A program made the position numbers and the translations under genes. DNA of 61,794 nucleotides, taken from positions 1 through 61,794 of the forward strand of contig JASEHD010000002.1 in the NCBI GenBank assembly GCA_030019075.1, given 5' to 3'. This stretch comes from Bacteroidota bacterium. Lineage in GTDB: Bacteria; Bacteroidota; Ignavibacteria; UBA10030; SZUA-254. The notes under the pieces were generated by a model. The model was given only the letters and a program-made list of their open reading frames with translations. It did not search any database and was not told the origin of the DNA. Positions 3,097 to 49,362 of the stretch are shown one piece after another; positions within the stretch are counted from its first letter, which is position 1, and every line of letters begins with the position of its first letter.

Positions 3097-3111
3097 AACA
3101 TTTTAATGCAT

Positions 3112-3237
3112 GGCTGTCCAAAAAGTAAATATTGCTTAGTGTTTCTTAGTGAACTTAGTGCCTTAGTGGTAACTAATGAAAAGAAAAACACTAAGACACT
3201 AAGCACACTAAGGTTCACAAAGACTTTTTGAACAGCC
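3112..3237. repeat. MITE-like imperfect palindrome built of CTTAGTG/CACTAAG heptamer words
   Basis: The termini are GGCTGTCCAAAAAGT (3112..3126) and ACTTTTTGAACAGCC (3223..3237), complementary at 14/15 positions. Four CTTAGTG words (3135..3168) face three CACTAAG words (3189..3212). Confidence 0.75.
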
Positions 3238-3267
3238 TCGCATTTTCATTTTTTGAAAGGAATAACA

Positions 3268-5521: not shown

Positions 5522-5543
5522 TTAGGTACTTTCGATATAATGA

Positions 5544-6995: not shown

Positions 6996-7022
6996 AAATT
7001 TAAAGTTTTAATTCCTTGAATC

Positions 7023-7601: not shown

Positions 7602-7639
7602 TGCTATATATTATACAAAAGTTTTTCCAAAGAGAAAAA

Positions 7640-8773: not shown

Positions 8774-8784
8774 GTTATCTCATA

Positions 8785-9060: not shown

Positions 9061-9069
9061 ATCATTATA

Positions 9070-10473
9070 TTAAAAATGTTTTTTGAATTGTTCGACGAGT
9101 TGTTTTGCCCGATCCATTGTTTGTGCCTCAGCAATAATACGGATAATCGGCTCAGTGTTCGACTTCCTCAGATGTACCCAAGAATCTTCAAAATCAATTT
9201 TTAAACCATCCTCAGTGTTGATGATCCCTGCTGATTCATATTTTCGTTGAATCGTTTCGAATGCTCGATCTATATCCTTCCTATGTCCGCCTGAGGTGGA
9301 TTCAAATTTTGATTTGACAATTGAATACTTTGGCAGTGACTCTTTAAATTCGGAAATTGTTCCTTGATATTCCGCAAGCTGTTGAAGGATCAATCCGATA
9401 CCAACAATTGCATCACGGGTAAAGTGAACATCAGGGAGAATAACTCCTCCGCTTCCCTCTCCACCTACAATCGCACCGACCTCTTTCATTTTCTGGGCAA
9501 CGTTTATTTCACCAACTGGTGTACGGATAACTTCAGTACCATACGATTTTGCTATAACATCGATTGCACGGGTGGTGGAGAGATTTACAACAACGTTTTG
9601 AGATTTGGGATGCTTGCCCGCCGAAGGCGGGTGAAGGATTTGGGATTTGGAATTTTGTTTTGAGAGTATGAATTTTACGACTGACGTGATGGTATATTCC
9701 TCACCGAATGGTTCGCCTTTTTCTGTGATTAAAACAAGTCGGTCAACGTCGGGGTCAACGGCAATTCCTAAATCTGCTTTTACATTTTTCACACACTTAC
9801 ATAATTCAACAAGATTTTCTGGAATTGGTTCAGGATTTCGAGTAAAGATTCCGCTTACTTCACAGTTTAGTTCTATGACTTCGCATCCTAAATCACGAAG
9901 CATCTTTGGAACGATATTACCACCAGATGCGTTGATGCAATCCACAACAATTTTAAATTTTCGATTTTTAATTTGTTCAATGTTAATATAAGGTAAACTC
10001 AGAACAGCGCCGATATGCTGCTGCATGAACGATTCGTCTGTAATATGTCGCCCGATTTTATCCCATGCAGCATAATTAAATTTTTGCCCTTCTGCAATAT
10101 TCCAGAGCTTTTGATTCTCCTCAGCATTTAGGAACATACCCGTCTGTGCGATAAATTTCAAGCCATTCCACTGGATTGGGTTATGACTTGCAGTAATAGC
10201 TATACCTCCAGCGGCTACAAGTTTTTCTACTGCAAGTGCAACTGTTGGAGTTGGTACAATCCCTAAATCGACCACATCGCAGCCTATCGAAAGGAATGTT
10301 GAAGACACGAGATTACTAATAATTCTTCCAGTAACTCGCCCATCTTGCCCGATCACAACTTTTCCATGATTGCAGAATTGTGCAAAAGCTGATGAATACT
10401 TCACAATTACATCAGGAGTGAGACTTTCACCCACGATGCCGCGGATACCTGATATGCTAAATATTAAAGACAT
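9070..10473 (-). CDS. glmM: phosphoglucosamine mutase (Bacteroidetes-type alpha-D-phosphohexomutase)
   Basis: 467 aa. N-terminus SISGIRGIVGESLTP, phosphoserine loop TASHNP, metal loop DPDVDR and sugar loop GEGSGG. Confidence 0.8.
   Translation of the reverse strand: MSLIFSISGIRGIVGESLTPDVIVKYSSAFAQFCNHGKVVIGQDGRVTGRIISNLVSSTFLSIGCDVVDLGIVPTPTVALAVEKLVAAGGIAITASHNPIQWNGLKFIAQTGMFLNAEENQKLWNIAEGQKFNYAAWDKIGRHITDESFMQQHIGAVLSLPYINIEQIKNRKFKIVVDCINASGGNIVPKMLRDLGCEVIELNCEVSGIFTRNPEPIPENLVELCKCVKNVKADLGIAVDPDVDRLVLITEKGEPFGEEYTITSVVKFILSKQNSKSQILHPPSAGKHPKSQNVVVNLSTTRAIDVIAKSYGTEVIRTPVGEINVAQKMKEVGAIVGGEGSGGVILPDVHFTRDAIVGIGLILQQLAEYQGTISEFKESLPKYSIVKSKFESTSGGHRKDIDRAFETIQRKYESAGIINTEDGLKIDFEDSWVHLRKSNTEPIIRIIAEAQTMDRAKQLVEQFKKHF
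9596..9665. repeat. palindrome plus GATTTGG heptamer words lying in-frame inside glmM
   Basis: GC hairpin CCCGCC-GAA-GGCGGG (9617..9631). It is flanked by GATTTGG words at 9602..9608, 9637..9643 and 9644..9650. The segment encodes SKSQILHPPSAGKHPKSQN. Confidence 0.7.
10397..10455. repeat. direct repeat copy 1 (functional glmM 5' end)
   Basis: The 59 nt are identical to 11097..11155 at all but 3 positions. The two copies lie exactly 700 bp apart. Confidence 0.9.
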
Positions 10474-10630
10474 ATATATTTACTTTGAAAATGTAGTAAA
10501 GAAGTTGATGAGAATCAAATAATAAAGCGAAGTGCGGAGAGCAATGAGCGGTGAAGCAGTATAATAAAATTTTGTATTTTAAGTGACGAAAGAGTACATT
10601 TAGGAAGTTTACACAAGTTAAGGAAACACT

Positions 10631-10843
10631 ATGGGAAAAGTAAAAGAGCCAGCATCCACATACATTGTGGATAAGGAAGGCAAGAAAACAGCCGTTATTC
10701 TTCCTATCGAAAAATATGAAGAGTTATTAGAAGACTTGGAAGATTTGGCAGTGATTGCTTCTCGAAAGACTGAACCAACATATGACTGGGAAGAACTAAA
10801 AAATAAATTGAAAAGGGATGGGATCCTTTCTGATAAAATATAG
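10631..10843 (+). CDS. type II antitoxin (RelB/Phd-like)
   Basis: 70 aa with an acidic C-terminal half (EKYEELLEDLEDLAVIASRK). It overlaps the downstream RelE-like toxin gene. Confidence 0.7.
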   Translation: MGKVKEPASTYIVDKEGKKTAVILPIEKYEELLEDLEDLAVIASRKTEPTYDWEELKNKLKRDGILSDKI

Positions 10844-11081
10844 GGCTTCGTTTGAAAAGGAGTTTCGGAGCATCCCAAAAGAGTTTACCGATGCTGTTGC
10901 AGTTCGCATAGATTCTCTTTCTCAAAATCCGTTTCCTGTCGGATGTAAGAAACTTACCAATGAAGAATTTTATCGAATTCGAGTTGGCAATTATCGGATT
11001 GTCTATTCGGTCGATTCAAACAGCAAGGTGATAACGATAGAAAGGATCAAACATCGAAAAGATGTGTACAGAAAACTTTGA
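10818..11081 (+). CDS. type II toxin, RelE/ParE family
   Basis: 87 aa. The sequence YRIRVGNYRIVYSVDSNSKVITIERIKHRKDVY is the classic RelE/StbE C-terminal pattern. Confidence 0.85.
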   Translation: MGSFLIKYRASFEKEFRSIPKEFTDAVAVRIDSLSQNPFPVGCKKLTNEEFYRIRVGNYRIVYSVDSNSKVITIERIKHRKDVYRKL

Positions 11082-11096
11082 CAGTGGTTAAGGAAG

Positions 11097-11155
11097 TATT
11101 TCACAATAACATCGGGAGTGAGACTTTCACCCACGATGCCGCGGATACCTGATAT
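11097..11155 (-). pseudogene. relic glmM 5' fragment (direct repeat copy 2)
   Basis: It encodes ISGIRGIVGESLTPDVIVKY on the minus strand with no start codon. The 3 differences from copy 1 all fall on third codon positions (P, V, K) and are synonymous. Confidence 0.8.
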
Positions 11156-11162
11156 ACATAAT

Positions 11163-11368
11163 GGCAGTTCCAAAAACTAATTTTTTGAATCACAAAGTTT
11201 TTACACACCTGTGTGCCTAAACACTTCGGTGTGTAGGCGCAAAGAGCACAAAGAACCCAACAAAATCCCTGCCTGAGTGCCGAACAATTCGGCAGGCAGG
11301 AATACTTTGTGAACTTTGCCCCCGGCTCGTAGAGTGGTAAAGTATTTTGGGAATTTTTTTGAACCGCC
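11163..11368. repeat. MITE-like element related to 3112..3237
   Basis: The left end is GGCAGTTCCAAAAACT. The reverse complement of the right end is GGCGGTTCAAAAAAA. Internal hairpins are ACAC-TTCG-GTGT and CCTGCCTG...CAGGCAGG. CACAAAG/CTTTGTG words are present. Confidence 0.65.
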
Positions 11369-11675
11369 CATTAATGACATGTAGTTATTGAATATTGGAT
11401 TAATGGAATAATGGAATGATGGATATAAATTAGTGAAGATGAAGTTGATAGGGAAGAATAAACCTTAAAAACAACAAACAAAATGGATTCTTGTATCTCT
11501 ACAATTATTTCCGTAACTTTTATTAAGATTTTACTAAGAAAATAGAGACAATATTTTCAGCAGATGACGACAAAATCAGTAAAAGAATTTTGTATTGCGT
11601 TATTTTTGTCAAGCTTGCACTTTGGCATTCATGATTAACTTGAATAAACATACATTTACAAGAGGAAAATGAGAT

Positions 11676-11882
11676 ATGTTAAACACACTTCGTGCAATTG
11701 TTCGAGAAGGAAAAATTGAATTACTTGAAAAAATGGATATCCCTGAGGGTACAAACGTTCTGGTGACTTTGATGCAAGAAAACGATGAAACTCAATATTG
11801 GGTAAAAGCAAGCCAGAAATCTTTGGATAAAATTTGGAATAACACCGAAGACGATGTATATGCACAATTACTTAAAGTATGA
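11676..11882 (+). CDS. putative antitoxin (DUF104/AF2212-like N-terminal swapped-hairpin type)
   Basis: 68 aa. The sequence LRAIVREGKIELLEKMDIPEGTNVLVTL resembles small antitoxins. It overlaps the downstream PemK-like ORF. Confidence 0.5.
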   Translation: MLNTLRAIVREGKIELLEKMDIPEGTNVLVTLMQENDETQYWVKASQKSLDKIWNNTEDDVYAQLLKV

Positions 11883-12117
11883 TGTTCTTCTTCTCCGTTA
11901 TCCCTTCGCAGATTTATCTGATTCCAAGATTAGACCTGCCGTCCTAATCAGCACTCAACATATTTCCGAAGATATCTTTGTTGTGCCTTTGACCAGTAGA
12001 ACAACTTCTTTTTTATCTGGTGAATTCGTTTTGGATAAATGGAATGTTGGCAAATTATTCTCTTCTGATGCAAAAAGATTGGAAGATTCATTACGTAATT
12101 GGTTAGGACTTCATTAA
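11854..12117 (+). CDS. PemK/MazF-like toxin, unusually short (possibly degenerate)
   Basis: DVLLLRYPFADLSDSKIRPAVLIS...IFVVPLTS matches the MazF/PemK N-terminal core. The C-terminal half looks about 25 aa shorter than typical family members. Confidence 0.5.
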   Translation: MYMHNYLKYDVLLLRYPFADLSDSKIRPAVLISTQHISEDIFVVPLTSRTTSFLSGEFVLDKWNVGKLFSSDAKRLEDSLRNWLGLH

Positions 12118-12142
12118 GAATTTGCCAGAGGAAATATAGGCA

Positions 12143-12694
12143 ATGCTTTCAACAAATGATAAAAAAATCCTTTTAGAAACAGCGCGCAAATCAATCGAAG
12201 CGGCAATCGAAGGCAACAAGTTTGAATCACCTCGAAGCGTTTCTTCTGCATTAAAAGAATCTTGCGGCGCATTTGTAACACTTCACAAATATGGCGAGTT
12301 GCGCGGCTGCATAGGTTATATCGAAGGTGTTCTACCATTAATCGAAACTGTCAAAGATGTTGCCGCAAAAGCTGCCACAGAAGATTATCGCTTTAACCCG
12401 GTTACTCAAGATGAAATGCCAGAGATCGATATTGAAATCTCCGTTCTAACTCCATTGAGACTCATTAAAGATATAAACGAAATCGAAGTAGGTAAACATG
12501 GAATCGTTATGCAGCGTGAACACAATCGCGGCTTGCTGCTGCCGCAAGTAGCTACCGAATACGGATGGGACAGAGAAACATTTTTAAACCAGACTGCACA
12601 CAAAGCTGGATTGAGTGCAGATGCTTGGAAAAAACCTGACACAAATATTTATATTTTCAGCGCTGAAATCTTTGGCGAGGAGAAAAACAGATGA
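12143..12694 (+). CDS. amrA: AmmeMemoRadiSam system protein A (AMMECR1 domain)
   Basis: 183 aa with CGAFVTLHKYGELRGCIGYIEG and the LLLPQVA motif. Confidence 0.88.
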   Translation: MLSTNDKKILLETARKSIEAAIEGNKFESPRSVSSALKESCGAFVTLHKYGELRGCIGYIEGVLPLIETVKDVAAKAATEDYRFNPVTQDEMPEIDIEISVLTPLRLIKDINEIEVGKHGIVMQREHNRGLLLPQVATEYGWDRETFLNQTAHKAGLSADAWKKPDTNIYIFSAEIFGEEKNR

Positions 12695-13527
12695 TCGTTC
12701 GTCAACCCGTGGTTGCCGGGATGTTTTACCCGGTTAATCCAAGAACACTTGAAAACGAAATTGGCCAGATGCTTTCGAAAGCAGCGATCAATCCATCCGC
12801 CTCAGTCAGACATGGAAATCTCATCGCAATCATCGTGCCTCATGCTGGTTATGTGTACTCAGGGTTGACTGCTGCACATGCGTATAAACTACTTCAACAA
12901 ACCTCTTTCGATACGGTTGTGATCATCTCTCCAAGTCACCGTGAATATTTTCAGGGAATTTCAGTATACAGCGGTGATGTTTACCGAACACCTCTCGGCG
13001 ATATTGCCATAGATGAAGACATACGGGAAAAACTTGTTAAGGATGATAAACTAATCGAAGCATCCACACACGGTCATACTGCTGAACATGCCATCGAAGT
13101 GCAGCTTCCATTTTTACAAAAAGTATTAAAAAATTTTAAAATCGTTCCAATTGTAATGAGCGACCAAGGAAGTGAGCTATGCTACCATCTCGCAGATAGA
13201 CTTGCAGAAGTCCTCAAGGACAAGAAAGCATTAATCGCTGCTTCTACCGACCTCTCACATTATCACACAGCATATGAAGCGGATAAATTAGATAAAATAG
13301 TGATTGATGACGTTGCACACTTTGATTATAAAAAGTTAAGTAAAGATTTAGAAACTGAGCGGGCAGAAGCATGTGGAGGCGGTCCGGTGGTTGCAGCACT
13401 CAGAGCGGCGAAGAAACTTGGTGCTAATCATGTTGAAATACTTCATCAATGCAATTCAGGTGACGTCACGGGTGATCGTGATGCAGTTGTAGGTTACCTT
13501 TCTGCAGCAGTTCTAAAAATATATTAG
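12691..13527 (+). CDS. amrB: AmmeMemoRadiSam system protein B (MEMO1 family)
   Basis: 278 aa with VPHAGYVYSG, a His-rich site HGHTAEHAIEVQLPF, and DLSHYH. It has a 4-nt overlap with amrA. Confidence 0.88.
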   Translation: MIVRQPVVAGMFYPVNPRTLENEIGQMLSKAAINPSASVRHGNLIAIIVPHAGYVYSGLTAAHAYKLLQQTSFDTVVIISPSHREYFQGISVYSGDVYRTPLGDIAIDEDIREKLVKDDKLIEASTHGHTAEHAIEVQLPFLQKVLKNFKIVPIVMSDQGSELCYHLADRLAEVLKDKKALIAASTDLSHYHTAYEADKLDKIVIDDVAHFDYKKLSKDLETERAEACGGGPVVAALRAAKKLGANHVEILHQCNSGDVTGDRDAVVGYLSAAVLKIY

Positions 13528-13533
13528 CCCTTC

Positions 13534-14469
13534 ATGCCTAAACGATTTCCAAAAGTATCAATCATCGGGGCGGGAGTAGTCGGAACTGTAATTGCCTCCA
13601 CCCTCTTTCATAAAGGATACCAATTCGTAAGCATTATCGATAAAAATGGCTCCAAAGCACTCTCACTTGCCCACGCTGTGAAGTGTGATAAAGCAGGAGT
13701 TACTTTAGCTGATTTGGCAACAAGTTCTGATATAATTTTTATTACAGTTAACGATAGTTCGATTAAACAGGTTGCTGCAGATTTAGCAAAACAGAAAAAA
13801 CTTAATTATAAAAAGATGTTGATTCTCCATTGCTCAGGTGTTTTATCATCGGAAGTATTAGCGCCTCTTGAGAAAAAAGGCGCCCTAATTGGAGGAATGC
13901 ATCCAATTCAATCATTTCCCCTCTTCCAAAATACGGTAAAAGTGAAATCATATTTAAAAGGAATATATTACGGTATCGATGGTTCATTAGAAGCGACTAA
14001 AGAAATACAGCAGTTAGTGGAAAATTTAGAAGGGAAGGCGATTATTATTCAAAAAGAGTTGAAACCATTGTACCACGTGGTTTGTGTATTTGCTTCGAAT
14101 TATATGACAGTATTTTTAAATGCGATTGAGGAGTTGACACGAACATTGCATCTCAATGCATCATGGACTGAAGTGTTCGGTCCGCTGATGACGTCAACAA
14201 TGGAGAATGTAGTAAAAACGTCAGCACATAAAGCGCTCACAGGTCCAATCATGCGCGGTGATTTCGAAACTATCGACCTGCACCTCAAGACTTTGAACGA
14301 GTATGCCCCGCAATTTCTTTCTATTTACACTATCGGAGGAATAGAAGCAGCCCGTATTGCTAAAGAAGAGGGTAAATTAAGTGATGAGAATTTTAATGAA
14401 ATTATTCGTAAATTTAGAACGTTCATAAAAACAAGTTCAATCGAAAAAATTACAAAGGTAAAACAGTGA
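13534..14469 (+). CDS. Rossmann-fold oxidoreductase-like protein with DUF2520-type C-terminus
   Basis: 311 aa. N-terminal dinucleotide-binding motif VSIIGAGVVGTVIAS. The ProC/F420-oxidoreductase-like layout is from recollection. Confidence 0.65.
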   Translation: MPKRFPKVSIIGAGVVGTVIASTLFHKGYQFVSIIDKNGSKALSLAHAVKCDKAGVTLADLATSSDIIFITVNDSSIKQVAADLAKQKKLNYKKMLILHCSGVLSSEVLAPLEKKGALIGGMHPIQSFPLFQNTVKVKSYLKGIYYGIDGSLEATKEIQQLVENLEGKAIIIQKELKPLYHVVCVFASNYMTVFLNAIEELTRTLHLNASWTEVFGPLMTSTMENVVKTSAHKALTGPIMRGDFETIDLHLKTLNEYAPQFLSIYTIGGIEAARIAKEEGKLSDENFNEIIRKFRTFIKTSSIEKITKVKQ

Positions 14470-15530
14470 AAGCACTTATAGCAAGTGGTGGACACGGCAC
14501 ACGCCTCCGTCCCCTTACGCATACACAAAACAAACATCTTATTCCAGTGGCAAACAAACCGATTCTGCATTACGCAATCGAAGCAGCGGTGGATGCAGGA
14601 ATCAAACAAATTGGAATCATCCACAATGCCGACAGCCAAGAAGTTCCTGATGCACTCGGAAATGGAAAAAGATGGGGTGTGAAAATTACCTACATCCCTC
14701 AAAAAACTCCAGCCGGACTTGCACACGTTGTAAAGATAGCTGAGAAGTTCATCGGCAAAGATAATTTCATTTTTTATCTTGGCGATAACATGGTTGTTGG
14801 CGGTGTAAAGCGATTCATTGATGAATTTGAAAAAAGCGATTGCAATTGCTGGCTTACTTTATCAAAGGTAAAAGACCCTGAGCGATTCGGTGTCCCCGTG
14901 ATTAAAAATGGTAGGATAATTAAAGTTGAAGAAAAGCCTGCGAAGCCAAAAAGTCAATTTGCAGTTGCTGGCATTTACATTTATGACAAACATATATTCG
15001 AGGCAGTAAAGAAAATTAAACCAAGTGCGCGAGGTGAATTAGAAATTTCTGATGCACATACTTATTTAATTGAAAAGGGTTATAAAGTCGGATACAGCGA
15101 GATCACCGGCTGGTGGAAAGATACAGGTAAGCCATCGGATTTATTAGAAGCTAATCGTCTAATCTTAGATAACATCGAACAGAATCTTCAGGGTGAAGTA
15201 GATAAAGCTTCATCGGTTTTAGGCAAAGTATTTTTAGATGAAGGTGCCAAAGTAATCAACAGTGTTGTCCGCGGACCGGCGATCATCGGTAAAAATGCTA
15301 TTATAGAAAATAGTTATATCGGACCGTTCACATCAATCGGTAACAATACGATTATTCGAAATGCAGAAGTCGAGTACAGCATCGTTCTTCGTGATTCTAA
15401 AATTATAAATGTGAAGCTTCGCATCGAGGGAAGCATCCTCGGTAACGATGTTGAGATCGTAGATGCAATCGGCAAACCGCATGTACATCGGTTTATGATT
15501 GGGGATCAAAGCAGAGTGGAAGTAGCGTAA
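14466..15530 (+). CDS. glucose-1-phosphate thymidylyltransferase-like sugar nucleotidyltransferase (long form with left-handed beta-helix tail)
   Basis: 354 aa. N-terminal GGHGTRLRPLTHTQNKHLIPVANKP. The C-terminus has hexapeptide-like repeats (IIGKNAIIENSYIGPFTSIGNNTII). Confidence 0.8.
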   Translation: MKALIASGGHGTRLRPLTHTQNKHLIPVANKPILHYAIEAAVDAGIKQIGIIHNADSQEVPDALGNGKRWGVKITYIPQKTPAGLAHVVKIAEKFIGKDNFIFYLGDNMVVGGVKRFIDEFEKSDCNCWLTLSKVKDPERFGVPVIKNGRIIKVEEKPAKPKSQFAVAGIYIYDKHIFEAVKKIKPSARGELEISDAHTYLIEKGYKVGYSEITGWWKDTGKPSDLLEANRLILDNIEQNLQGEVDKASSVLGKVFLDEGAKVINSVVRGPAIIGKNAIIENSYIGPFTSIGNNTIIRNAEVEYSIVLRDSKIINVKLRIEGSILGNDVEIVDAIGKPHVHRFMIGDQSRVEVA

Positions 15531-15532
15531 GA

Positions 15533-15554
15533 GATGTTAGATATCGGATGTCTG
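15533..15554. repeat. left inverted arm flanking the four-helix-bundle gene
   Basis: GATGTTAGATATCGGATGTCTG is complementary to 16032..16053 at 17/22 positions (hand alignment). It sits in a GATGTNN/GATATNN word array at 15531..15575. Confidence 0.7.
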
Positions 15555-15600
15555 TTATCAGATGTTTGTTGAATTAGGATGAATATATTTTTATGGAAAC

Positions 15601-16017
15601 ATGGAAGATACAGGATATAGAAAATTAGATATCTATAAACTCTCATACGAGTTGGCGCTTAAAGTTCATGGAATGACATTAACACTCCCAAAGTTTGAGA
15701 TGTATGAAGAAGGTAGTCAGATTAGGAGGTCATCGAAATCAATTCCTGCTAACATCGTTGAGGGATATTGCTTGCGAAGGCATAAGAATGAATATCTTCA
15801 GTATCTTCATCGTGCGTTTGGTTCCAGTCAAGAAACAATTGTTCACCTTAAAATTCTCTATGATACAAAATCACTTGTTGATAAAAGTATTTATGATGAG
15901 CTTTTAGATCGATACACTCATCTCGGTAAGATGCTATTCCGATTTATCGAATCAGTACTATCAGAGCACGTCTCTCCGCTTTATATCAAAGAAGAAAATA
16001 ATGAATATCAAGTTTAA
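15601..16017 (+). CDS. four-helix-bundle protein (23S rRNA intervening-sequence protein / Avd family)
   Basis: 138 aa. The family pattern is YKLSYELALKVHGMTLTLPKFEMYEEGSQIRRSSKSIPANIVEG...YLHRAFGSSQET. Confidence 0.85.
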   Translation: MEDTGYRKLDIYKLSYELALKVHGMTLTLPKFEMYEEGSQIRRSSKSIPANIVEGYCLRRHKNEYLQYLHRAFGSSQETIVHLKILYDTKSLVDKSIYDELLDRYTHLGKMLFRFIESVLSEHVSPLYIKEENNEYQV

Positions 16018-16031
16018 CTAATAACCAACAT

Positions 16032-16053
16032 CTAACATCTAATATCTCACATC
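16032..16053. repeat. right inverted arm flanking the four-helix-bundle gene
   Basis: CTAACATCTAATATCTCACATC is the reverse-complement partner of 15533..15554. Confidence 0.7.
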
Positions 16054-16058
16054 AAATT

Positions 16059-16841
16059 ATGGACTACCAAACATTACTAATAGGCATCCACGACCGCATC
16101 GCATGGATAACATTTAATCGCCCCGACAAACTCAATGCAATCAATCTGCAAGTCATTGACGAATTAAGACAAGCTTTTAAAAGCTTTGAAAAGGATCCAA
16201 ACGTGGGTGTAATCATTCTCACTGGTGCCGGTGAGAAAGCATTCGTTGCCGGCTCTGATATCAGTGCGCTTGCAACATATGATTCAACAGCGGCAAAAAA
16301 CTATTCCGAAGTTGGGAATAAAGTTCTGAGTTACATCCAGAATTTTCCTAAACCAGTAATTGCTGCAATCAATGGTTTCGCATTAGGCAGTGGCTGTGAG
16401 ATTGCTATGGCTTGCCATATCCGCATCGCTTCCGAGAATGCAAAATTTGGTCAACCCGAAGTTAATCTCGGCTTAATACCTGGACACGGCGGAACGCAAC
16501 GATTAACACGCATTGTTGGTATCGGCAAAGCGATGGAACTAACATTGACAGGCAATGTTATAGATGCGAACGAAGCATTCCGAATCGGTTTGGTAAACAA
16601 GGTTGTAACTTTAGCGGAATTAAAATCAACAGCAGAAGTAATGGCACAAACAATTCTCACAAAGGCACCGCCGGCAATTGCACTTGCGATAAAAGCGATT
16701 AATTCAAATCTTGAAAAACCTCTCAGCGACGGTTTACAGTATGAAGCCGAACTATTCAGTGACTGTTTTAAAACTGAAGACATGAAAGAAGGCACAAAGG
16801 CATTCTTAGAAAAACGAAAGCCCGTGTTTACAGGCAAATGA
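16059..16841 (+). CDS. enoyl-CoA hydratase/crotonase
   Basis: 260 aa with KAFVAGSDI, GFALGSGCEIAMACHIRIAS and C-terminal EGTKAFLEKRKP. Confidence 0.9.
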   Translation: MDYQTLLIGIHDRIAWITFNRPDKLNAINLQVIDELRQAFKSFEKDPNVGVIILTGAGEKAFVAGSDISALATYDSTAAKNYSEVGNKVLSYIQNFPKPVIAAINGFALGSGCEIAMACHIRIASENAKFGQPEVNLGLIPGHGGTQRLTRIVGIGKAMELTLTGNVIDANEAFRIGLVNKVVTLAELKSTAEVMAQTILTKAPPAIALAIKAINSNLEKPLSDGLQYEAELFSDCFKTEDMKEGTKAFLEKRKPVFTGK

Positions 16842-17299
16842 TTTTTGATAAATCAGTAATATTTCGGTTTCTTATTATTGCCCTATTAGCGATCTTGGCA
16901 ATAGTATTGTTTGCAGCCACTACCCAACGACAAATTGATAAAATCGAGAAACTGCATCGTGATCTCTCAGCAATAGCTACTGAGATTGATGCAGAGGTGG
17001 ATTCAATTCTTTCACAATTTCATGTTGAATTGAAAAAAGTTCGGAAGCGAACATTCACAATCCCTAATACAAATTTGAATCGCATTGAGCGCCGGGTAAC
17101 GATTCCGAAAGATGTTGATCCTTTGCATATCAATCAAGCATTGAACTTAATGGCTCAAAAATATGACGGCAGAGCAATCGGTTCTGAGAATTTGAAGGAG
17201 AATACGGTTACAATACATATTAAATTAGATGGTTATATACTCGAGACATTAATACTTAAATCTCGTGTTGAGCAAAAACCAATAAAGAGAAAAAAATAA
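16838..17299 (+). CDS. hypothetical membrane-anchored protein
   Basis: 153 aa with one N-terminal TM helix (FRFLIIALLAILAIVLFAA). It has an ATGA overlap with the crotonase stop. I recognised no family. Confidence 0.5.
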   Translation: MIFDKSVIFRFLIIALLAILAIVLFAATTQRQIDKIEKLHRDLSAIATEIDAEVDSILSQFHVELKKVRKRTFTIPNTNLNRIERRVTIPKDVDPLHINQALNLMAQKYDGRAIGSENLKENTVTIHIKLDGYILETLILKSRVEQKPIKRKK

Positions 17300-17308
17300 A
17301 TAACACTT

Positions 17309-17375
17309 CTCTGCGTCCTCTGCGTCCTCTGCGTTTCTGCGTTGAATTCACAGCTGAGTCGCTGAGAACACAGAG
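17309..17375. repeat. nonamer tandem array CTCTGCGTC x3-4 followed by partly complementary words
   Basis: CTCTGCGTC CTCTGCGTC CTCTGCGTT TCTGCGTT (17309..17343), then CAGCTGAG/CGCTGAG/CACAGAG (17348..17375). It lies in the intergenic region upstream of glyQS. Confidence 0.7.
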
Positions 17376-17401
17376 TTATTTAACAATCAACTATTAAGAT
17401 T

Positions 17402-18877
17402 ATGGCAAAAGACAAAAAGAATACAGATACACAATTAATGGACAAACTCGTTTCACTTTGTAAACGACGAGGATTCATATTTCAATCGAGCGAAATTTAT
17501 GGCGGATTAAACGGTGCATGGGATTATGGACATTTAGGTGTTGAGCTTCTACGCAACATAAAAGATGAATGGTGGAAGGCAATGACATATCGTGAAGATG
17601 TCGAGGGTTTAGATGCGGCAATACTTATGCACCCACGTGTTTGGGAAGCATCGGGACATGTTGAGAACTTTACCGATCCGATGGTTGACTGCAAACAGTG
17701 TAAATCTCGCTATCGTCTCGACACTTTATTCGAAGAGACTTCGATTAAAAAACAAAAAGAAGTTTTACGAGAACTCGATCCACAAAAATATCAAGGTCAA
17801 CAAAAGGATGAATTCATATCTGAAGAATTCAAGAAAATAACAGAGTCAACTCCAAGTTCAGTGCTTACTGCTCTTAGCTGTCCTAACTGTGGGAATAAAA
17901 ACACATTTACGGATGCACGTAAATTCAATCTCATGTTTAAAACATTTGTTGGACCTGTGGAAGATTCAGGAGCGGTTGTTTATCTACGCCCTGAAACTGC
18001 ACAAGGAATTTTTGTCAACTTCCTAAACGTTCAAGCTGCTTCAAGACAAAAGCTTCCATTTGGGATAGCTCAGATTGGTAAAGCGTTCCGAAACGAGATC
18101 AACACAAAGAACTTTCTTTTCCGAACTCGTGAATTCGAGCAGATGGAAATGCAGTACTTTGTTAAACCTGGAACGGACGATAAGTGGTTCGAATACTGGC
18201 GTGAGCAGCGTATGCAGTGGTTCATAGATCTCGGAATGAAGAAAGAAAAACTCCAGTGGCATCAGCATGAACCGGATAAACTCGCACACTATGCCAAAGA
18301 CGCTTACGATATTGAATTTGAATTTCCATTTGGTTGGGGAGAAATTGAGGGTGTTCACAATCGAACAGATTTTGATCTGTCTCGACATGAGGAATTTTCC
18401 GGGAAAAGTATGAAATATTTTGATGAAGAAACGAAAGAGAAATTCACTCCATTCATCATCGAAACATCGGCGGGAGCAAGCCGTTCACTGATGGCTTTTC
18501 TTGTCAACGCTTATCACGAAGAAGAAGCACCGACAGCCGAAGGGCAGATGGAAACACGTGTAGTGATGAAGTTTCATCCTAAATTAGCACCTATTAAAGC
18601 TGCTATCTTTCCGCTTGTAAATCGTGATGGTATGCCTGAGATATCAAAAAAGATCGAGCAGGAATTGCGACCACATTTCCGTGTGTTTTATGACGACAGC
18701 GGTGCGGTTGGAAGACGATATCGCAGACAGGATGAAGTTGGTACACCGTACTGTATCACGATTGATTCGCAAACACTCGAAGATCAAACTGTTACGATAA
18801 GAGAGAGAGATTCAATGATACAGGAAAGGGTTGCAAGTGATAAAATAAAAACTTATCTTTTTAACAATATTAAATAA
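17402..18877 (+). CDS. glyQS: glycine--tRNA ligase (homodimeric class II)
   Basis: 491 aa. N-terminus KRRGFIFQSSEIYGGLNGAWDYG, motif 2 AQIGKAFRNEI...FRTREFEQMEMQYF, motif 3 ETSAGASRS. Confidence 0.93.
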   Translation: MAKDKKNTDTQLMDKLVSLCKRRGFIFQSSEIYGGLNGAWDYGHLGVELLRNIKDEWWKAMTYREDVEGLDAAILMHPRVWEASGHVENFTDPMVDCKQCKSRYRLDTLFEETSIKKQKEVLRELDPQKYQGQQKDEFISEEFKKITESTPSSVLTALSCPNCGNKNTFTDARKFNLMFKTFVGPVEDSGAVVYLRPETAQGIFVNFLNVQAASRQKLPFGIAQIGKAFRNEINTKNFLFRTREFEQMEMQYFVKPGTDDKWFEYWREQRMQWFIDLGMKKEKLQWHQHEPDKLAHYAKDAYDIEFEFPFGWGEIEGVHNRTDFDLSRHEEFSGKSMKYFDEETKEKFTPFIIETSAGASRSLMAFLVNAYHEEEAPTAEGQMETRVVMKFHPKLAPIKAAIFPLVNRDGMPEISKKIEQELRPHFRVFYDDSGAVGRRYRRQDEVGTPYCITIDSQTLEDQTVTIRERDSMIQERVASDKIKTYLFNNIK

Positions 18878-18916
18878 TCAACATCTAAATCTAACTATTT
18901 TTAAAGGAGACATTAT

Positions 18917-19735
18917 ATGAAATTAAAAAATCGCCGATTATCAACTATACTCTTGGCAGTTATTTCCCTATCAATAGGTTTCATTGGTTGTGAGAAGGAA
19001 GATGTACTTGCACCCGAAGAATTTGCACCGCCAACAAATTTGAAAGCATTGTCCATGGATGGAGCGGTCAAACTGTCATGGACTGCTGCACCTGCCGCAG
19101 ATGCTGATTTCTTTGTGGGATATCGGATTATGACGAAACAGGGTACAACACTAGTTGACAGTGTTCAGGTAGGCAAAACTATAATTAATCATACTGTTTC
19201 TCAATTAACAAACGGCCAATCATACACTTTTTCGATCCGTTCAGTTAAAGATAATAAAGATGTAAGCAAGGATATAATTATTATTTGGGGACCAACTATT
19301 AGGTATGCACCTGCACGCATTTACGAATTCGATTCGCAAAATCCATCAGGTCTTCAATTTTCAACTGGTACTGCAATGTCATTTAGTTCAGTAAACAAAA
19401 CATTAGTTGATCTATGGATCGATGGAAGGAGCAACTCAACACCTTTATTAAAAAGCCCACATGACCAAACAATTAGCACTGGTTGGAAAACTACACAATT
19501 TGTCGAAACAGTAAAATCGAGTTTAGATGAACAGGTGGATGTGCCAGCTATTAGTGAATTCCGCTCATCACCTGGATTACCTATTGTAAATAATAAAGTT
19601 TATTTCGCTCGTACCTCAGCAGGAAATTATGTCCGATTCCAAGTAGTTGGAGGAGTTCAAGATACCGCACCAAATCGTTATGTAGATATTAGAATCGCAT
19701 TTAACTCCGGCTTCGGCACTTGGGCAAAACGATAA
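18917..19735 (+). CDS. lipoprotein with Fn3-like domain, function unknown
   Basis: 272 aa with lipobox SIGFIGC and an Fn3-like segment PPTNLKALSMDGAVKLSWTAAP...YTFSIRSV. Confidence 0.6.
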   Translation: MKLKNRRLSTILLAVISLSIGFIGCEKEDVLAPEEFAPPTNLKALSMDGAVKLSWTAAPAADADFFVGYRIMTKQGTTLVDSVQVGKTIINHTVSQLTNGQSYTFSIRSVKDNKDVSKDIIIIWGPTIRYAPARIYEFDSQNPSGLQFSTGTAMSFSSVNKTLVDLWIDGRSNSTPLLKSPHDQTISTGWKTTQFVETVKSSLDEQVDVPAISEFRSSPGLPIVNNKVYFARTSAGNYVRFQVVGGVQDTAPNRYVDIRIAFNSGFGTWAKR

Positions 19736-26020: not shown

Positions 26021-27736
26021 ATGAGAATGAAATATTCTACGCTTATCAATGCTATGAAATCCCTTTCTTTTGTTCTGACATTGAGCTTATTTGTTATGCT
26101 TAGTGTACAAGATTACTGTTATCCACAGTGGTCACATGTTGGTCTAACAAACTCCGTGTATACACTTAAAAAACAAAAGAACACTTTACTTGCAGGTGCG
26201 GGTTTTGTATATCGTTCCACTGATTACGGAACTCACTGGGGCACACTTGGAAATACAAACATTGTTGGAGTTTCCACTATTGAGACGATTGATGATACTA
26301 TTCTTGTGGGAGGAAATTGGGATTGCATTTTTTGCAATGATCCGTTAACGGCAGTATCCCGTTCTAATGATAATGGAAATACTTGGACGACAGTTCTATC
26401 AGCATATTATGGTGTTCAATCAATTCTAAAAAGTAATAGATACATTTTCACAAATCCTGATGGAATGCTTTATCGTTCTGATGATGGGGGAGTCAGCTGG
26501 AATCGTGTTCCATCTGATTCATTATTTGGGGGGCGAATCTATTTATCATATGAAGATGACAGAACCCTTTACTTGTCTAGTGAAAATCAACTGTTCTACA
26601 CTACCGATTACGGTGAAACATGGAGTTTAATGACAAATGGTTGGGGAAACGCCTACGTCTATGAGCTTGTCAAGAGGGATTCGTTGATCTTCACAGGTAC
26701 GAGTTATGGAGTGTACCGTTCTACAAATCACGGAGTGAACTGGGAAAAATTTAGCCCGGGAAATAACATTATTTTTGCTCTGCTCCTTTTGGGTGACAAT
26801 CTCTTCGCTGTCTGGAGTCACTCGATTTACATGACGAAAATTGTTTCTCAGGACTGGAATAATGTAAGTACCGGATTAACTCTCCCAGATTATCCGACTA
26901 TCAATACACTCGTATATAGCGGTCAATATCTTTTCGCCGGAACAAATTACGGAGTCTGGCGGCGACCATTATCAGAGATGATGCTTCTAGAGGATATAAA
27001 GGTTAAAAGAGGTTGGAATATGATTTCGCTACCGGCTATAACCACCGACGTTAGAAAAACCGATTTGTTTCCTACGGCAACATCGCACGCATTTTCCTAT
27101 AACGGTTCTACTTATATCCGGCATGATACGCTTCAAAAAGGTATCGGATATTGGATGAAGTTCAGCAGCGATCAGACAATATCAATCATTGGTTCAAAAA
27201 TAAATATAGATACGATTAATGTACTACCTGGATGGAATATGATTGGATCGATTAGTACTCCAGTTCCGGTTGGATCTACTACTTTCATCCCACATGACAT
27301 TCAGGTAAGTAAATTTTTCAAATACGACGGATCATACGTTCCTGCTGATACTCTTATGCCGGGGAAAAGTTACTGGATAAAAGTTAATCAGGTTGGTAAA
27401 TTGATTCTTTCGCCTTCTGGTTCTGCATCTTCATCAAATCTAATCAAAATTGTAAAAGGTGGAGAGATGCCGCCACCACCGCCGGATGGTGAAATCTCAA
27501 ATCCCAAATCCCAAATCCCAAATAAATTTGCTTTAGAGCAGAATTATCCGAACCCTTTTAATCCAATAACCGTTATTCGTTATTCGTTACCTGTTAATAG
27601 TTGGGTGACGTTGAAAGTTCATAACGTGCTTGGGCAAGAAGTCGTAATGCTGGTTGATGAGTTTCAGGATGCAGGATACAAATCGGTTGAGTGGATGGGT
27701 CGGGCTTACCAAGTGGAGTGTATATGTACAAATTAA
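26021..27736 (+). CDS. BNR/Asp-box beta-propeller protein with frameshifted T9SS CTD
   Basis: Asp-box repeats [36 protein letters not shown] and STNHGVNWE. The CTD starts at [11 protein letters not shown] but the frame breaks after KSVEW. Confidence 0.8.
27492..27526 (+). repeat. AAATCCC heptamer tandem array inside a CDS
   Basis: AAATCTC AAATCCC AAATCCC AAATCCC AAATAAA encodes [11 protein letters not shown]. The periodic word is the same as in the glmM insert. Confidence 0.85.
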
Positions 27737-48345: not shown

Positions 48346-49362
48346 TCATATTGATAGATTAGGAATAGCATTCAGTGAAAAATCAGAAGACTGCCCTGCT
48401 ATAATTTTCATCCATCCTAACTGTGCAATCATTGCTCCGTTATCGGTACAGTATCGGAATTCCGGAATGAATAAACGAAATCCATTCTCGTCGGCACAAG
48501 CTTGCAGCCTTTTACGAAGCTCTGAGTTTGCAGAAACACCTCCGGCTATTGTAACATTCCTGACTTTCATATTCTTAGCAGCTCGTAGTGTTTTTTCCAC
48601 CAGAACATCAACAACAGACGCTTGGAAACTTGCACAAATATCGGCTAACAATTGATTTGAGATATGAGATATGTGATATGAGTAGTCCGGGGTATGATCT
48701 TTCAGCCAGTAAAGAACAGAAGTTTTTATTCCGCTGAAGCTGAAATCATAACTATCTGGCTCAAGAAATGTGCGTGGGAATTTTATAAAATTAGGATTAC
48801 CATCCTTCGCCAATTTGTCGATTATTGGACCACCCGGAAATCCAAGCCCTAACATTTTTGCAACTTTATCATACGCTTCGCCTGCCGCATCATCAAGTGT
48901 CTCCCCAAGCAGTTGATGGTGGAGAGCTTTTTGTACATATATTAATTGCGTATGCCCACCAGATACAGTTAGACAAATAAAAGGATAATCGGGTTTTGGC
49001 TCATCAATGAAATTTGAATACATATGGGCTTCCATATGATTGATACCCACGAAAGGTATTTTCAAACCGTATGCAAGCGCCTTAGCGAAACTCAATCCGA
49101 CTAAAAGTGCACCCATGAGACCGGGTCCATACGTTACTGCAACTCCTTCAAGCTGCTGTTTCTTGATACCTGCGACAACCAGAGCTTCTTTGACAACAGG
49201 ACCAATCAAACGTTGATGTGCACGTGAAGCCAACTCAGGCACAACACCGCCATATTTTTGATGGATAAGCTGTGAAGAAATTATATTCGATAAAACCTTA
49301 CCATCATCGAGTACAGCAGCCGAAGTTTCATCACAAGATGTTTCGATTCCGAGAATATACAT
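48346..49362 (-). CDS. tsaD: tRNA N6-adenosine threonylcarbamoyltransferase
   Basis: 338 aa with GIETSCDETSAAV, HMEAHM and GGVSANSELR. Confidence 0.93.
   Translation of the reverse strand: MYILGIETSCDETSAAVLDDGKVLSNIISSQLIHQKYGGVVPELASRAHQRLIGPVVKEALVVAGIKKQQLEGVAVTYGPGLMGALLVGLSFAKALAYGLKIPFVGINHMEAHMYSNFIDEPKPDYPFICLTVSGGHTQLIYVQKALHHQLLGETLDDAAGEAYDKVAKMLGLGFPGGPIIDKLAKDGNPNFIKFPRTFLEPDSYDFSFSGIKTSVLYWLKDHTPDYSYHISHISNQLLADICASFQASVVDVLVEKTLRAAKNMKVRNVTIAGGVSANSELRKRLQACADENGFRLFIPEFRYCTDNGAMIAQLGWMKIIAGQSSDFSLNAIPNLSI
48654..48681. repeat. GATATGA-type heptamer tandem array inside tsaD
   Basis: GATTTGA GATATGA GATATGT GATATGA on the plus strand encodes YSYHISHISNQ on the coding strand. 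Confidence 0.85.

What the first reader, a model, noticed from the sequence alone, without database searches (positions are those of the whole stretch)
15531..16058. Four-helix-bundle (23S IVS/Avd-family) gene held in the loop of inverted heptamer-word arms
- The 417-nt ORF is flanked by GATGTNA/GATATNN word arrays.
- The arms 15533..15554 and 16032..16053 are complementary at 17 of 22 positions, so the whole gene sits in the loop of a long stem.
- This is the architecture known for this protein family inside 23S rRNA intervening sequences. Here it is inserted between a nucleotidyltransferase gene and a crotonase gene.
- ORF-less hairpins of the same word-array style occur at 3112..3237, 11163..11368 and 17309..17375. 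A half-arm-like CAACATCTAAATCTAAC follows glyQS (about 18880..18897).
- This suggests the four-helix-bundle gene may be the cargo of a mobile or processed RNA hairpin element, and the ORF-less copies may be its derivatives.
Basis: partly seen in the sequence, partly recalled or inferred. Interest (0 to 1): 0.62.

Follow-up and report, generated by a model that had tools for sequence, protein, structure and literature searches.

The report
IVS-type four-helix-bundle cassette in an operon
A small gene of the "23S rRNA intervening-sequence protein" family sits between two housekeeping genes, bracketed by mirror-image runs of a 7-letter word; the same bracket turns out to flank this gene family across many bacterial phyla, which ties the long-unexplained excess of 7-letter repeats in bacteria to an insertable cassette.

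Summary
ORF 15601..16017 is a PF05635/TIGR02436 four-helix-bundle protein. A GATRTNN heptamer array (15531..15571) and its reverse complement (16018..16056) fill the whole spacer between a nucleotidyltransferase gene and an enoyl-CoA hydratase gene.

The bracket is a family trait. Significant inverted arms occur in 48/60, 58/78 and 53/74 loci of three PF05635 subfamilies. The word period is 7 almost throughout. Arms are about 28 nt and 85-90% complementary, and the 5' arm is C-poor.

The cassette is accessory. The closest relative has an empty 21-nt spacer. Other relatives hold decayed copies or ORF-less hairpins. A Bacteroides thetaiotaomicron-type locus shows a within-species filled/empty polymorphism.

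The published Coxiella 23S IVS has the same parts: an S23p ORF, tandem heptamers, a 28-bp stem and a mapped RNase III cut.

Best reading: an IVS-type cassette living in an mRNA operon. Its arms probably form an RNase III-type stem.

Not shown here: RNA processing, how the cassette moves, and what the protein does. There is no G·U excess in the arms.

The parts
14466..15530 (+). Upstream host gene: nucleotidyltransferase (NTP_transferase plus hexapeptide repeats). Its stop codon TAA (15528-15530) abuts the 5' arm.
   Evidence: Pfam PF00483, E 1.1e-54. Orthologues in 80 genomes.
15531..15571 (+). 5' arm: G/T-rich, C-poor array of about 6 heptamer words (GAGATGT TAGATAT CGGATGT CTGTTAT CAGATGT TTGTTGA).
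   Evidence: Sequence. Inverted repeats I1-I3. TRF. Word statistics.
15572..15600 (+). Spacer between the 5' arm and the start codon (AATTAGGATGAATATATTTTTATGGAAAC), with an AGGA that may serve as a ribosome-binding site.
   Evidence: Sequence. Homologous loci carry a comparable purine-rich spacer, often with AGGAG-like motifs, between the 5' array and the start codon.
15601..16017 (+). Cargo ORF, 138 aa: PF05635 / TIGR02436 four-helix-bundle protein (23S rRNA IVS protein / Avd family). It is under purifying selection.
   Evidence: 3520 homologues. dN 0.18-0.26 with dS saturated. Solved relatives are 2gsc and 2rld, each listed with 5 chains in one entry; PMC4990558 describes the X. campestris S23p structure, which corresponds to 2gsc, as a homopentamer.
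16018..16056 (+). 3' arm: A/C-rich, G-poor array, the reverse complement of the 5' words (CTAATAACCAACATCTAACATCTAATATCTCACATCAAA). It ends just before the next start codon.
16059..16841 (+). Downstream host gene: enoyl-CoA hydratase (crotonase).
   Evidence: Pfam PF00378, E 3.5e-77. In empty-site relatives it follows the transferase after a short spacer, mostly 16-25 nt, that carries a GGAG-type (Shine-Dalgarno-like) motif in many of them.

Best explanation
Window 15531..16058 is one copy of a widespread accessory cassette. The cassette is a PF05635 four-helix-bundle gene bracketed by two arrays of a short word, here the heptamer GATRTNN. The 5' array is on the coding strand and the 3' array is its reverse complement. 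The cassette lies co-oriented inside a run of tightly packed housekeeping genes and replaces the normal ~20-nt spacer between the nucleotidyltransferase and crotonase genes.

Proposed mechanism: the cassette is transcribed as part of the host polycistronic RNA. The C-poor 5' arm and the G-poor 3' arm pair into a helix of about 28-31 bp that loops out the ~460-nt ORF segment. This is the same design as the ORF-bearing intervening sequences of 23S rRNA. By that analogy the helix is most likely an RNase III substrate. Cleavage would release the four-helix-bundle mRNA and separate the flanking cistrons. Folding would also bring the upstream stop and the downstream start close together, which could make the insertion tolerable.

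Over time the cassette decays by internal deletion to ORF-less word-array hairpins.

Shown here: the anatomy, the family-wide conservation, the polarity of the arms, co-evolution of the two arms, the insertion polymorphism, the decay series, and purifying selection on the ORF.

Inferred: helix formation in vivo, RNase III cleavage, and any benefit or cost to the host.

Unknown: how the cassette moves, what the protein does, and why the word length is 7.
For: Anatomy:
-.

Family-wide bracket:
- The best autocorrelation lag upstream of the gene is 7 in 57/60 loci.
- Arms reach z>3 against shuffles in 48/60, 58/78 and 53/74 loci of three subfamilies from many phyla.
- In about 1.08 Mb of loci, most of them chosen for holding a PF05635 gene or sharing its site, 188 of 200 tandem word arrays have period 7. 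129 of them lie within 150 nt of a PF05635 gene, a zone that covers 9.4% of the bases.
- Arms have a median length of 27-29 nt and are 85-90% complementary. The 5' arm has G>C in 144 of 154 elements.

Arm co-evolution and ORF constraint:
- Own arms pair better than arms taken from other genomes, even at the same site (31.8 vs 27.0, p=0.014) and within one word class (32.4 vs 24.1, p=2e-4).
- Synonymous sites of the ORF are saturated while dN is 0.18-0.26.

Operon residence:
- Both neighbours are co-oriented in 47/50 and 52/66 loci.
- No promoter-like or terminator-like signal sits at the cassette.
- RNA-seq contigs run unbroken from araD through the four-helix-bundle gene to araA at the B. thetaiotaomicron-type locus.

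Accessory nature:
- L061, the closest relative (transferase 94% identical), has a 21-nt empty spacer, and most orthologous sites are empty.
- L222 is empty and L142 is filled at 98.7% araD DNA identity.

Decay series:
- L062 and L099 are broken. L125 keeps residues 3-48 plus both arms.
- L250 is an ORF-less hairpin with the same ATTGTCA words. L231 keeps only the 3' arm.

Link to the IVS:
- PMC4990558 reports an S23p ORF, three tandem GACAGAT heptamers with variable copy number, a 28-bp terminal stem, and RNase III cleavage mapped by RACE at the start of the first repeat.
Against: - No transcript-end data exist for this locus or any mRNA-borne copy. RNA-seq contigs only show contiguous coverage, and contig breaks at the arrays are explained by the arrays being multi-copy.
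- Arm mismatches show no excess of G·U-compatible types over A·C types (35 vs 47; 44 vs 40). An RNA helix under per-site selection would normally show such an excess.
- A test for mirrored word order in the two arms was underpowered. Complementarity may therefore partly reflect two arrays of one word in opposite orientation rather than a position-specific palindrome.
- The whole-region fold is no more stable than shuffled sequence (z -0.1).
- The cassette is not in rRNA, so the RNase III step is taken over from a different context.
Confidence: 0.55

Rival explanations
1. DNA-level element. The arrays are the ends of a mobile DNA unit, or binding sites on single- or double-stranded DNA for a factor acting in trans. 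That factor could be the four-helix-bundle protein itself or an unlinked enzyme. The arrangement would resemble REP/REPIN sequences flanking RAYT genes. In this view arm complementarity exists because both ends carry the same recognition word in inverted orientation, not because an RNA helix is selected.
For: - No G·U bias in the arms.
- Word class tracks the protein clade across different genomic sites. For example, GATRT words occur with the closest homologues both at the transferase/crotonase site and at a second site (L004, L006, L009).
- ORF-less hairpins with the same words occur near ORF-bearing copies and elsewhere in the same genome (record 15).
- The same intergenic slots are hit repeatedly by different word hairpins (L069, L116, L264, L266).
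- One slot holds an IS200-like Y1 transposase next to a GATRT arm (L066).
Against: - The cassette encodes no transposase, integrase or reverse transcriptase, and none is nearby.
- The Y1 transposase was seen once in 1.5 Mb.
- No target-site duplication is visible at filled versus empty sites.
- Arms 450 nt apart are unlikely to extrude as a DNA cruciform.
- The strict co-orientation with host operons and the constant strand polarity fit an RNA-level role better.
- RNase III cleavage in the heptamer stem is demonstrated for the rRNA-borne relative.
Confidence: 0.2
2. RNA operator model. The pentameric four-helix-bundle protein binds the repeated words of its own 5' arm as RNA, one word per subunit, in the manner of TRAP or HutP. 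Binding would compete with arm-arm pairing and so autoregulate its own translation or processing.
For: - The solved relatives 2gsc and 2rld are each listed with 5 chains in one entry, and PMC4990558 describes the X. campestris S23p structure, which corresponds to 2gsc, as a homopentameric toroid.
- Arrays usually hold 3-6 words.
- Within the window's subfamily all word classes share a G-R-T start.
- Word class co-varies with protein clade.
Against: - Word number is not fixed at five. The mode is 3-4 and the range is 2-12.
- Other subfamilies use unrelated words such as AATTGAC, GTGAATA and CCCATAT, with no common core.
- The model does not explain why a complementary 3' array is nearly always present.
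- No binding data exist.
Confidence: 0.12
3. Incidental microsatellites. Heptamer repeats arise anywhere by polymerase slippage. Their presence on both sides of this gene would then be coincidence or a mutational by-product without function.
For: - Heptamer simple repeats are known to be over-represented in bacterial genomes, and slippage has been proposed as the cause (PMC4692102).
- Copy number varies between strains.
- Arrays also occur inside coding regions in the window.
Against: - Slippage does not explain why the 3' array is the reverse complement of the 5' array in about 75% of about 210 loci.
- It does not explain why polarity relative to the gene is constant (144/154), or why own arms match better than foreign arms.
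- It does not explain why the arrays persist with the gene while synonymous sites are saturated.
Confidence: 0.03

Closest known systems
ORF-bearing intervening sequences (IVS) of 23S rRNA (Coxiella burnetii helix-45 IVS; Leptospira, Brucella and Xanthomonas-type S23p IVS)
   Same: - Same protein family in the loop (PF05635 / S23p).
[quoted passage not shown]
- The 5' part of the stem is made of tandem heptamers whose copy number varies.
- The size is similar: about 430-530 nt.
- The element has no mobility gene of its own.
- The ORF can decay (PMC4990558).
   Different: - This copy lies between protein-coding genes of an operon, not inside an rRNA helix. None of the 380 loci held, scanned for all but the last 81, showed an rRNA motif.
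- The ORF here is under purifying selection. In Coxiella it is reported as probably untranslated and decaying.
- RNase III excision is demonstrated there and only inferred here.
Over-represented intergenic heptameric repeats of bacteria (STRR of heterocystous cyanobacteria; GGGAATC of Xanthomonas and GGGGAYT of Nostoc; TAACTGA of Beggiatoaceae)
   Same: - 7-nt tandem words in intergenic regions, mostly between co-oriented genes.
- They occur singly or as inverted pairs, and length varies between close relatives.
- Their function is declared unknown (PMC4692102, PMC4679880).
   Different: Neither paper connects the repeats to S23p or four-helix-bundle genes: these terms occur zero times in both texts. 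Here the arrays bracket that gene family. Whether the Xanthomonas, Nostoc and Beggiatoa repeats belong to the same system was not tested.
REP/REPIN sequences and their RAYT transposase
   Same: - A small gene is flanked by inverted copies of a hairpin-forming repeat.
- ORF-less hairpin derivatives of the same sequence are dispersed in the genome.
   Different: - The cargo is a four-helix bundle with no HUH/Y1 catalytic motif.
- The arms are tandem word arrays rather than a single palindrome.
- A Y1 transposase was seen in only one related slot.
Avd, the accessory protein of diversity-generating retroelements
   Same: PF05635 and 'S23 ribosomal protein' did turn up in two DGR papers, which were not read.
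   Different: No reverse transcriptase was found in the scanned neighbouring genes, and template/variable repeats were not looked for. Avd genes were not examined for flanking arrays.

Membership tests
PF05635 / TIGR02436 four-helix-bundle protein (23S rRNA IVS protein, S23p) | Sequence match to the family model above the curated cutoff | tested here: met
   Pfam 89.9 bits against a cutoff of 33.8. TIGR02436 92 bits against a cutoff of 24.
PF05635 / TIGR02436 four-helix-bundle protein (23S rRNA IVS protein, S23p) | Four-helix-bundle fold assembling as a pentamer | not tested
   Only sequence relatedness to the solved entries 2gsc and 2rld was shown, E 1e-9 and 2e-6. No structure was predicted here.
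23S rRNA intervening sequence (IVS) | Inserted in a 23S rRNA helix (9, 25 or 45) | tested here: not met
   It lies between a nucleotidyltransferase gene and a crotonase gene. No rRNA in the window. No rRNA motif in any related locus scanned.
23S rRNA intervening sequence (IVS) | Terminal complementary sequences closing a stem around the element | tested here: met
   31 nt at 77% complementarity. The helix is present in the minimum-free-energy fold. It is family-wide.
23S rRNA intervening sequence (IVS) | S23p ORF in the loop, preceded by tandem heptamers (Coxiella type) | tested here: met
   compared with PMC4990558.
23S rRNA intervening sequence (IVS) | Excision from the precursor RNA by RNase III | not testable with these tools
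   No sequencing run holds the window. For the B. thetaiotaomicron-type locus only assembled contigs were available.
REP/REPIN-RAYT system | Cargo is a Y1 HUH (IS200-like) transposase | tested here: not met
   The cargo matches only PF05635. Y1_Tnp occurs once, in L066, in 1.5 Mb of related loci.
Diversity-generating retroelement (Avd component) | Adjacent reverse transcriptase and template/variable repeat pair | tested here: not met
   The scanned ORFs between 10.6 and 21.8 kb are housekeeping or toxin-antitoxin genes and none is a reverse transcriptase. Template/variable repeats were not looked for.
MITE / classical DNA transposon | Terminal inverted repeats plus a target-site duplication, with a clean empty site | tested here: inconclusive
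   Inverted arms are present. Filled versus empty comparison at 98.7% flank identity shows the whole spacer replaced and no duplication.
Known RNA families (Rfam 15) | Match to a curated covariance model | tested here: not met
   No match at gathering scores in the whole window, and none at E<=1 in 2900-19100.

The most novel reading that the evidence does not exclude
PF05635 four-helix-bundle genes and their inverted short-word arrays may form one widespread class of selfish, IVS-like cassettes. These would colonise transcribed spacers, both operon intergenic regions and rRNA helices, in Bacteroidota, Ignavibacteriota, Cyanobacteria, Proteobacteria, Firmicutes and other phyla. Each protein clade would be matched to its own word, implying that the protein recognises or maintains the arrays. 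The ORF-less hairpins and solo arrays left behind by the cassettes would then account for much of the long-noted, unexplained over-representation of heptameric repeats in bacterial genomes (STRR, GGGAATC, TAACTGA).
Probability: 0.3. Interest if true: 0.85.

Novelty: new variant of a known kind. Interest (0 to 1): 0.7.

Why it matters
- The 23S rRNA IVS with its S23p ORF has been treated as an oddity of ribosomal RNA. The function of the very large PF05635 family outside diversity-generating retroelements is unknown.
- Separately, the excess of heptameric tandem repeats in bacterial intergenic regions has been described several times, with no function assigned.
- The evidence here joins these two threads. 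The same stem-plus-ORF unit, built from 7-nt words, lives inside ordinary operons in many phyla, comes and goes between close relatives, and leaves ORF-less hairpins behind.
- One copy lies in the arabinose operon of a B. thetaiotaomicron-type genome, and a strain with a naturally empty site exists. The questions therefore become directly testable in a genetically tractable organism: Is the stem cut by RNase III? Does the cassette insulate or perturb the host operon? Does the protein bind its own words? How does the unit move?

Tried and rejected
- Duplex energies of 90-nt flanks against mononucleotide shuffles were uninformative, because shuffling keeps the G/T-rich versus A/C-rich complementarity. 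I replaced this with alignment scores and with flanks defined by homology. That change revealed that many 3' arms overlap the ORF's 3' end.
- The G·U versus A·C mismatch count, meant to distinguish an RNA helix from DNA symmetry, showed no bias in either direction.
- The word-order permutation test for true palindromy was underpowered.
- RNA evidence: no run holds the window. The B. thetaiotaomicron-type runs are assembled contigs only. No Nanopore RNA run was found.
- Rfam at gathering and at permissive thresholds gave nothing.
- PADLOC and PHROGs gave no hit for the protein.
- Two scans of viral contigs for two subfamilies found no copies.
- A search for rRNA context in 299 loci found none, so the IVS comparison rests on the literature.
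- Literature searches for the word sequences, for BT_0352 and for the family names found no description of the family-wide bracket.
- The idea of one word per subunit of a pentamer is rejected as a rule, because arrays vary from 2 to 12 words.
- A geometric thought, that G/T-rich strands run 5'→3' inward from both host flanks as after telomere-like end healing, was left as speculation. It carries one bit of information and has no supporting enzyme.
- The periodic stretches at 30077-30110 and 34133-34152 were rejected as chance periodicity within the coding sequence of conserved C-terminal sorting domains.
Full report
**1. What is in the window**

The ORF at 15601..16017 (+, 138 aa) matches Pfam PF05635 (23S_rRNA_IVP; E 1.5e-25, well above the gathering score) and NCBIfam TIGR02436 'four helix bundle protein'. 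It is the only member of the family in the window.

The upstream gene (14466..15530) is a nucleotidyltransferase with hexapeptide repeats. The downstream gene (16059..16841) is an enoyl-CoA hydratase. Both belong to a run of co-directional, partly overlapping housekeeping genes: AMMECR1, Memo, DUF2520, transferase, [cassette], crotonase, a 153-aa protein, glyQS, and further genes. No reverse transcriptase is among the scanned ORFs between about 10.6 and 21.8 kb. No promoter-like or terminator-like site lies at the cassette.

Directly after the transferase stop codon the sequence reads GAGATGT TAGATAT CGGATGT CTGTTAT CAGATGT TTGTTGA. Directly after the ORF stop it reads CTAATAACCAACATCTAACATCTAATATCTCACATCAAA, which ends a few bases before the crotonase ATG.

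- The repeat finder gives a 31-nt pairing at 77% and two further registers.
- Tandem Repeats Finder calls both arms.
- The word pattern GATRTNNGATRTNNGAT occurs 9 times against 0.71 expected, six of them in the arms.
- The minimum-free-energy fold of the region closes with the arm-arm helix, although the overall energy is unremarkable.

**2. The bracket is a property of the gene family**

The protein has 3520 homologues in the large protein collection. The closest are from Ignavibacteria/Chlorobi-group metagenome-assembled genomes.

*First subfamily.* I fetched sixty homologous loci from species-representative genomes.
- Printing their flanks shows the same layout almost everywhere: a G/T-rich array of a 7-nt word upstream and the reverse-complement array downstream. 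The word differs from locus to locus: GATRTNN, GGTTCAR, GATTCTG, GATTACR/GATTGTA/GATTAGA, GAGTTTY, GGTTTGR.
- The best autocorrelation lag in the 110 nt upstream is 7 in 57 of 60 loci.
- When the 3' flank is counted from the end of protein homology, the arms align with z>3 against shuffles in 48/60 loci and z>2 in 54/60. In many loci the ORF simply reads on into the 3' arm.

*Second subfamily.* I sampled this with the sequence of PDB entry 2RLD. It comes from Bacteroides, Flavobacteriia, Oscillospiraceae, cyanobacteria, Fibrobacteria, Verrucomicrobiota and others. It shows the same layout with other words, such as AATTGAC, AATGCAG, GAAAGTT and CAGTTGA. Arms reach z>3 in 58/78 loci.

*Third subfamily.* This is 2GSC-like and comes from metagenomes. 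It again shows the layout, with words such as GTGAATA, TATGGGA, GGAAGTA, AGCGTAT and AAGGGGY. A minority have 8-nt words. Arms reach z>3 in 53/74 loci.

*Across all three subfamilies:*
- The aligned arm has a median length of 27-29 nt and is 85-90% complementary. The 5' arm has more G than C in 144 of 154 elements.
- In about 1.08 Mb of fetched loci, 188 of 200 tandem word arrays of period 5-11 have period 7. Of these arrays, 129 lie within 150 nt of a PF05635 gene, a zone that covers 9.4% of the bases. Most of these loci were chosen for containing such a gene or for sharing its site, so this is not a genome-wide rate.
- Both neighbours are co-oriented with the cassette in 47/50 and 52/66 loci.

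**3. The arms co-evolve and the ORF is constrained**

At the orthologous transferase/crotonase site, ten genomes carry the cassette. Synonymous sites of the ORF are saturated, while dN is 0.18-0.26. The protein is therefore under purifying selection, and neutral sequence should have been randomised.

Yet each genome's 5' arm pairs better with its own 3' arm than with the 3' arms of other genomes:
- same site: mean score 31.8 vs 27.0, permutation p=0.014;
- GATRT class: 32.4 vs 24.1, p=2e-4;
- GGTTCA class: 36.9 vs 28.9, p=2e-4.

Two checks did not favour an RNA-specific constraint. Mismatches compatible with G·U pairing on the sense strand are not more frequent than A·C types (35 vs 47 and 44 vs 40). 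A test for mirrored word order was underpowered. I therefore cannot separate selection for pairing from concerted evolution of two arrays of one word.

**4. The cassette is accessory and decays**

*Transferase/crotonase site.* Eighty orthologous transferase loci were fetched without regard to the cassette.
- Of the sites where the crotonase start could be placed (58 of the 80), most are empty, with spacers mostly of 16-25 nt that in many carry a GGAG-type (Shine-Dalgarno-like) motif. The empty sites include the closest relative, L061 (transferase 94% identical; spacer 21 nt), and L065.
- Full cassettes occur in four loci.
- L062 has internal deletions. L099 is frameshifted. L125 keeps only residues 3-48 together with both arms.
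- L069 has a 261-nt ORF-less word-array hairpin at the same site with different, 8-nt words. L116 has a solo GTAGTAG array.
- In further genomes the same slot holds other cargo next to a single surviving GATRT arm. L066 has an IS200-like Y1 transposase. L070 and L082 have an AAA_21 ATPase with a TOPRIM-like partner.

*Bacteroides araD-araA site.*
- L142 and L143 carry the cassette in a 479-nt spacer. The encoded protein is identical to the 2RLD sequence.
- L222, labelled B. thetaiotaomicron, has a 36-nt spacer. Its flanks are 98.7% (araD) and 97.6% (araA) identical to L142 in DNA.
- L250 carries an ORF-less hairpin with the same ATTGTCA words. L231 keeps only the 3' arm.
- L264, L266 and L241 hold hairpins of other words.
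- No target-site duplication is visible. The whole spacer differs between filled and empty alleles.

No copy was found in viral contigs.

**5. Link to the known IVS**

The Coxiella burnetii paper (PMC4990558) describes the helix-45 IVS as follows:
- an S23p ORF closed by terminal inverted repeats that form a 28-bp stem;
- in the 5' region, three tandem heptamers GACAGAT plus a degenerate fourth, with copy number varying among strains;

Twenty-eight base pairs equals four heptamers, which matches the median arm length found here.

The cassette in the window has every one of these parts except the rRNA host. No rRNA is present in the window, and no rRNA motif was found in any of the 299 related loci then held. 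I therefore file it as working like an IVS but not as a 23S IVS.

**6. Transcript evidence**

No public run holds the window. For the B. thetaiotaomicron-type locus, RNA-seq assemblies contain contigs that run unbroken from araD through the four-helix-bundle gene into araA. This fits co-transcription.

Other contigs break at, or share, the arrays because the arrays are multi-copy in that genome. One contig carries array, 51 nt, then the reverse array, which is an ORF-less hairpin elsewhere in the same genome.

Assembled contigs cannot show processing. No raw or long-read RNA run was available.

**7.

- 3112..3237 is a strong hairpin (-52.9 kcal/mol, z -7.6). It is built from CTTAGTG/CACTAAG words spaced 8-9 nt apart.
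- 3112..3237 and 11163..11368 share a 14-nt terminal inverted repeat, GGCnGTYC(C)AAAAA, at all four ends. This repeat is absent from the cassette, so they form a separate terminal-repeat-bounded family. That family was seen only in this window among the loci held.
- 17309..17375 is made of 9-nt CTCTGCGTC words (z -2.9). It is conserved only in the closest cassette-bearing relative and absent from three others. Similar CTCTGYGCC words form the 3' arm of two third-subfamily cassettes, L327 and L351. A relationship is therefore possible but unproven.
- The short CAACATCTAAATCTAAC after glyQS is too short to assess.

**8. Comparison with the literature and novelty**

Heptameric tandem repeats are reported as over-represented in bacterial intergenic regions, single or as inverted pairs, mostly between co-oriented genes, and their function is stated to be unknown. 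Examples are Xanthomonas and Nostoc (PMC4692102) and TAACTGA in Beggiatoaceae (PMC4679880). Neither paper mentions S23p or four-helix-bundle genes.

Searches for the family names, the word sequences and BT_0352 found no description of the family-wide bracket or of such cassettes in operons. The library does not cover subscription journals, so absence of prior notice is not proven.

I rate the finding a new variant of a known kind: an IVS-type S23p element living in mRNA spacers. It carries a broader, still unproven implication for the origin of heptamer repeats.

**9. Verdict**

The cassette idea, the IVS analogy and the derivation of ORF-less hairpins are supported in general. Assigning this window's three ORF-less hairpins to the cassette is not supported. 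RNA processing is untested.
- The most likely mechanism is an RNase III-type stem that loops the cassette out of the operon transcript (confidence about 0.55).
- The main rival is a DNA-level role of the arrays as element ends or binding sites.

Noticed in passing
window 48654-48680 (tsaD, 48346..49362, minus strand): A solo array of the same word class as the cassette arms (GATTTGA GATATGA GATATGT GATATG) lies inside the tsaD coding region. It encodes about YHISHISN. Aligned to solved Thermotoga-type TsaD, this segment falls at a gap of about 8 residues, so it is an in-frame insertion in a loop.
   Followed up: partly
window 27488-27527 (ORF 26021..27736, +): An AAATCCC x4.6 heptamer array lies in frame immediately before the conserved C-terminal sorting-domain motif ([11 protein letters not shown]) of a secreted protein. 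A second short array, CGTTATT, lies at 27571-27589.
   Followed up: no
window 3112-3237 and 11163-11368: Two intergenic structured elements share the terminal inverted repeat GGCnGTYC(C)AAAAA at all four ends. The first is a near-perfect 126-nt hairpin (z -7.6). The second is 206 nt with two internal UUCG-type hairpins. Neither matches Rfam, and no copies were found in 380 related loci.
   Followed up: partly
window 17304-17375; L058 4530-4610: A hairpin of 9-nt words (CTCTGCGTC) lies between the 153-aa gene and glyQS. It is conserved with changes in the closest cassette-bearing relative (L058) and absent from L001, L003 and L008, which have a short A-rich spacer.
   Followed up: partly
window 11388-11425: An 8-nt word array (GGAATAAT x about 4.8) follows the 11163-11368 element. 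No reverse-complement partner was seen downstream, up to the next small ORFs.
   Followed up: no
window 10631-11081: A RelB-like antitoxin and ParE toxin pair lies directly upstream of the 11163-11368 element.
   Followed up: no
L066 3566-4404; L070 3566-5498; L082 3566-5483: The same transferase/crotonase slot holds other cargo in other genomes, each next to one surviving GATRT-type arm. L066 has an IS200-like Y1 transposase. L070 and L082 have an AAA_21 ATPase plus a TOPRIM-like protein, a pair that looks like a defence system.
   Followed up: partly
L221-L236 (Bacteroides araD-araA spacers): The 'empty' 30-40-nt spacers are themselves weakly 7-periodic (AATTAAA GATTATA AATTAAA AATTAAA). They share AATT with the AATTGAC words of the cassette that occupies this site in L142.
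   Followed up: no
L180 323-528; L168 2836-2988; L212 1982-3120: Very long arrays (up to 206 nt) and clusters of several ORF-less heptamer hairpins lie near second-subfamily cassettes and use the same word class.
   Followed up: no
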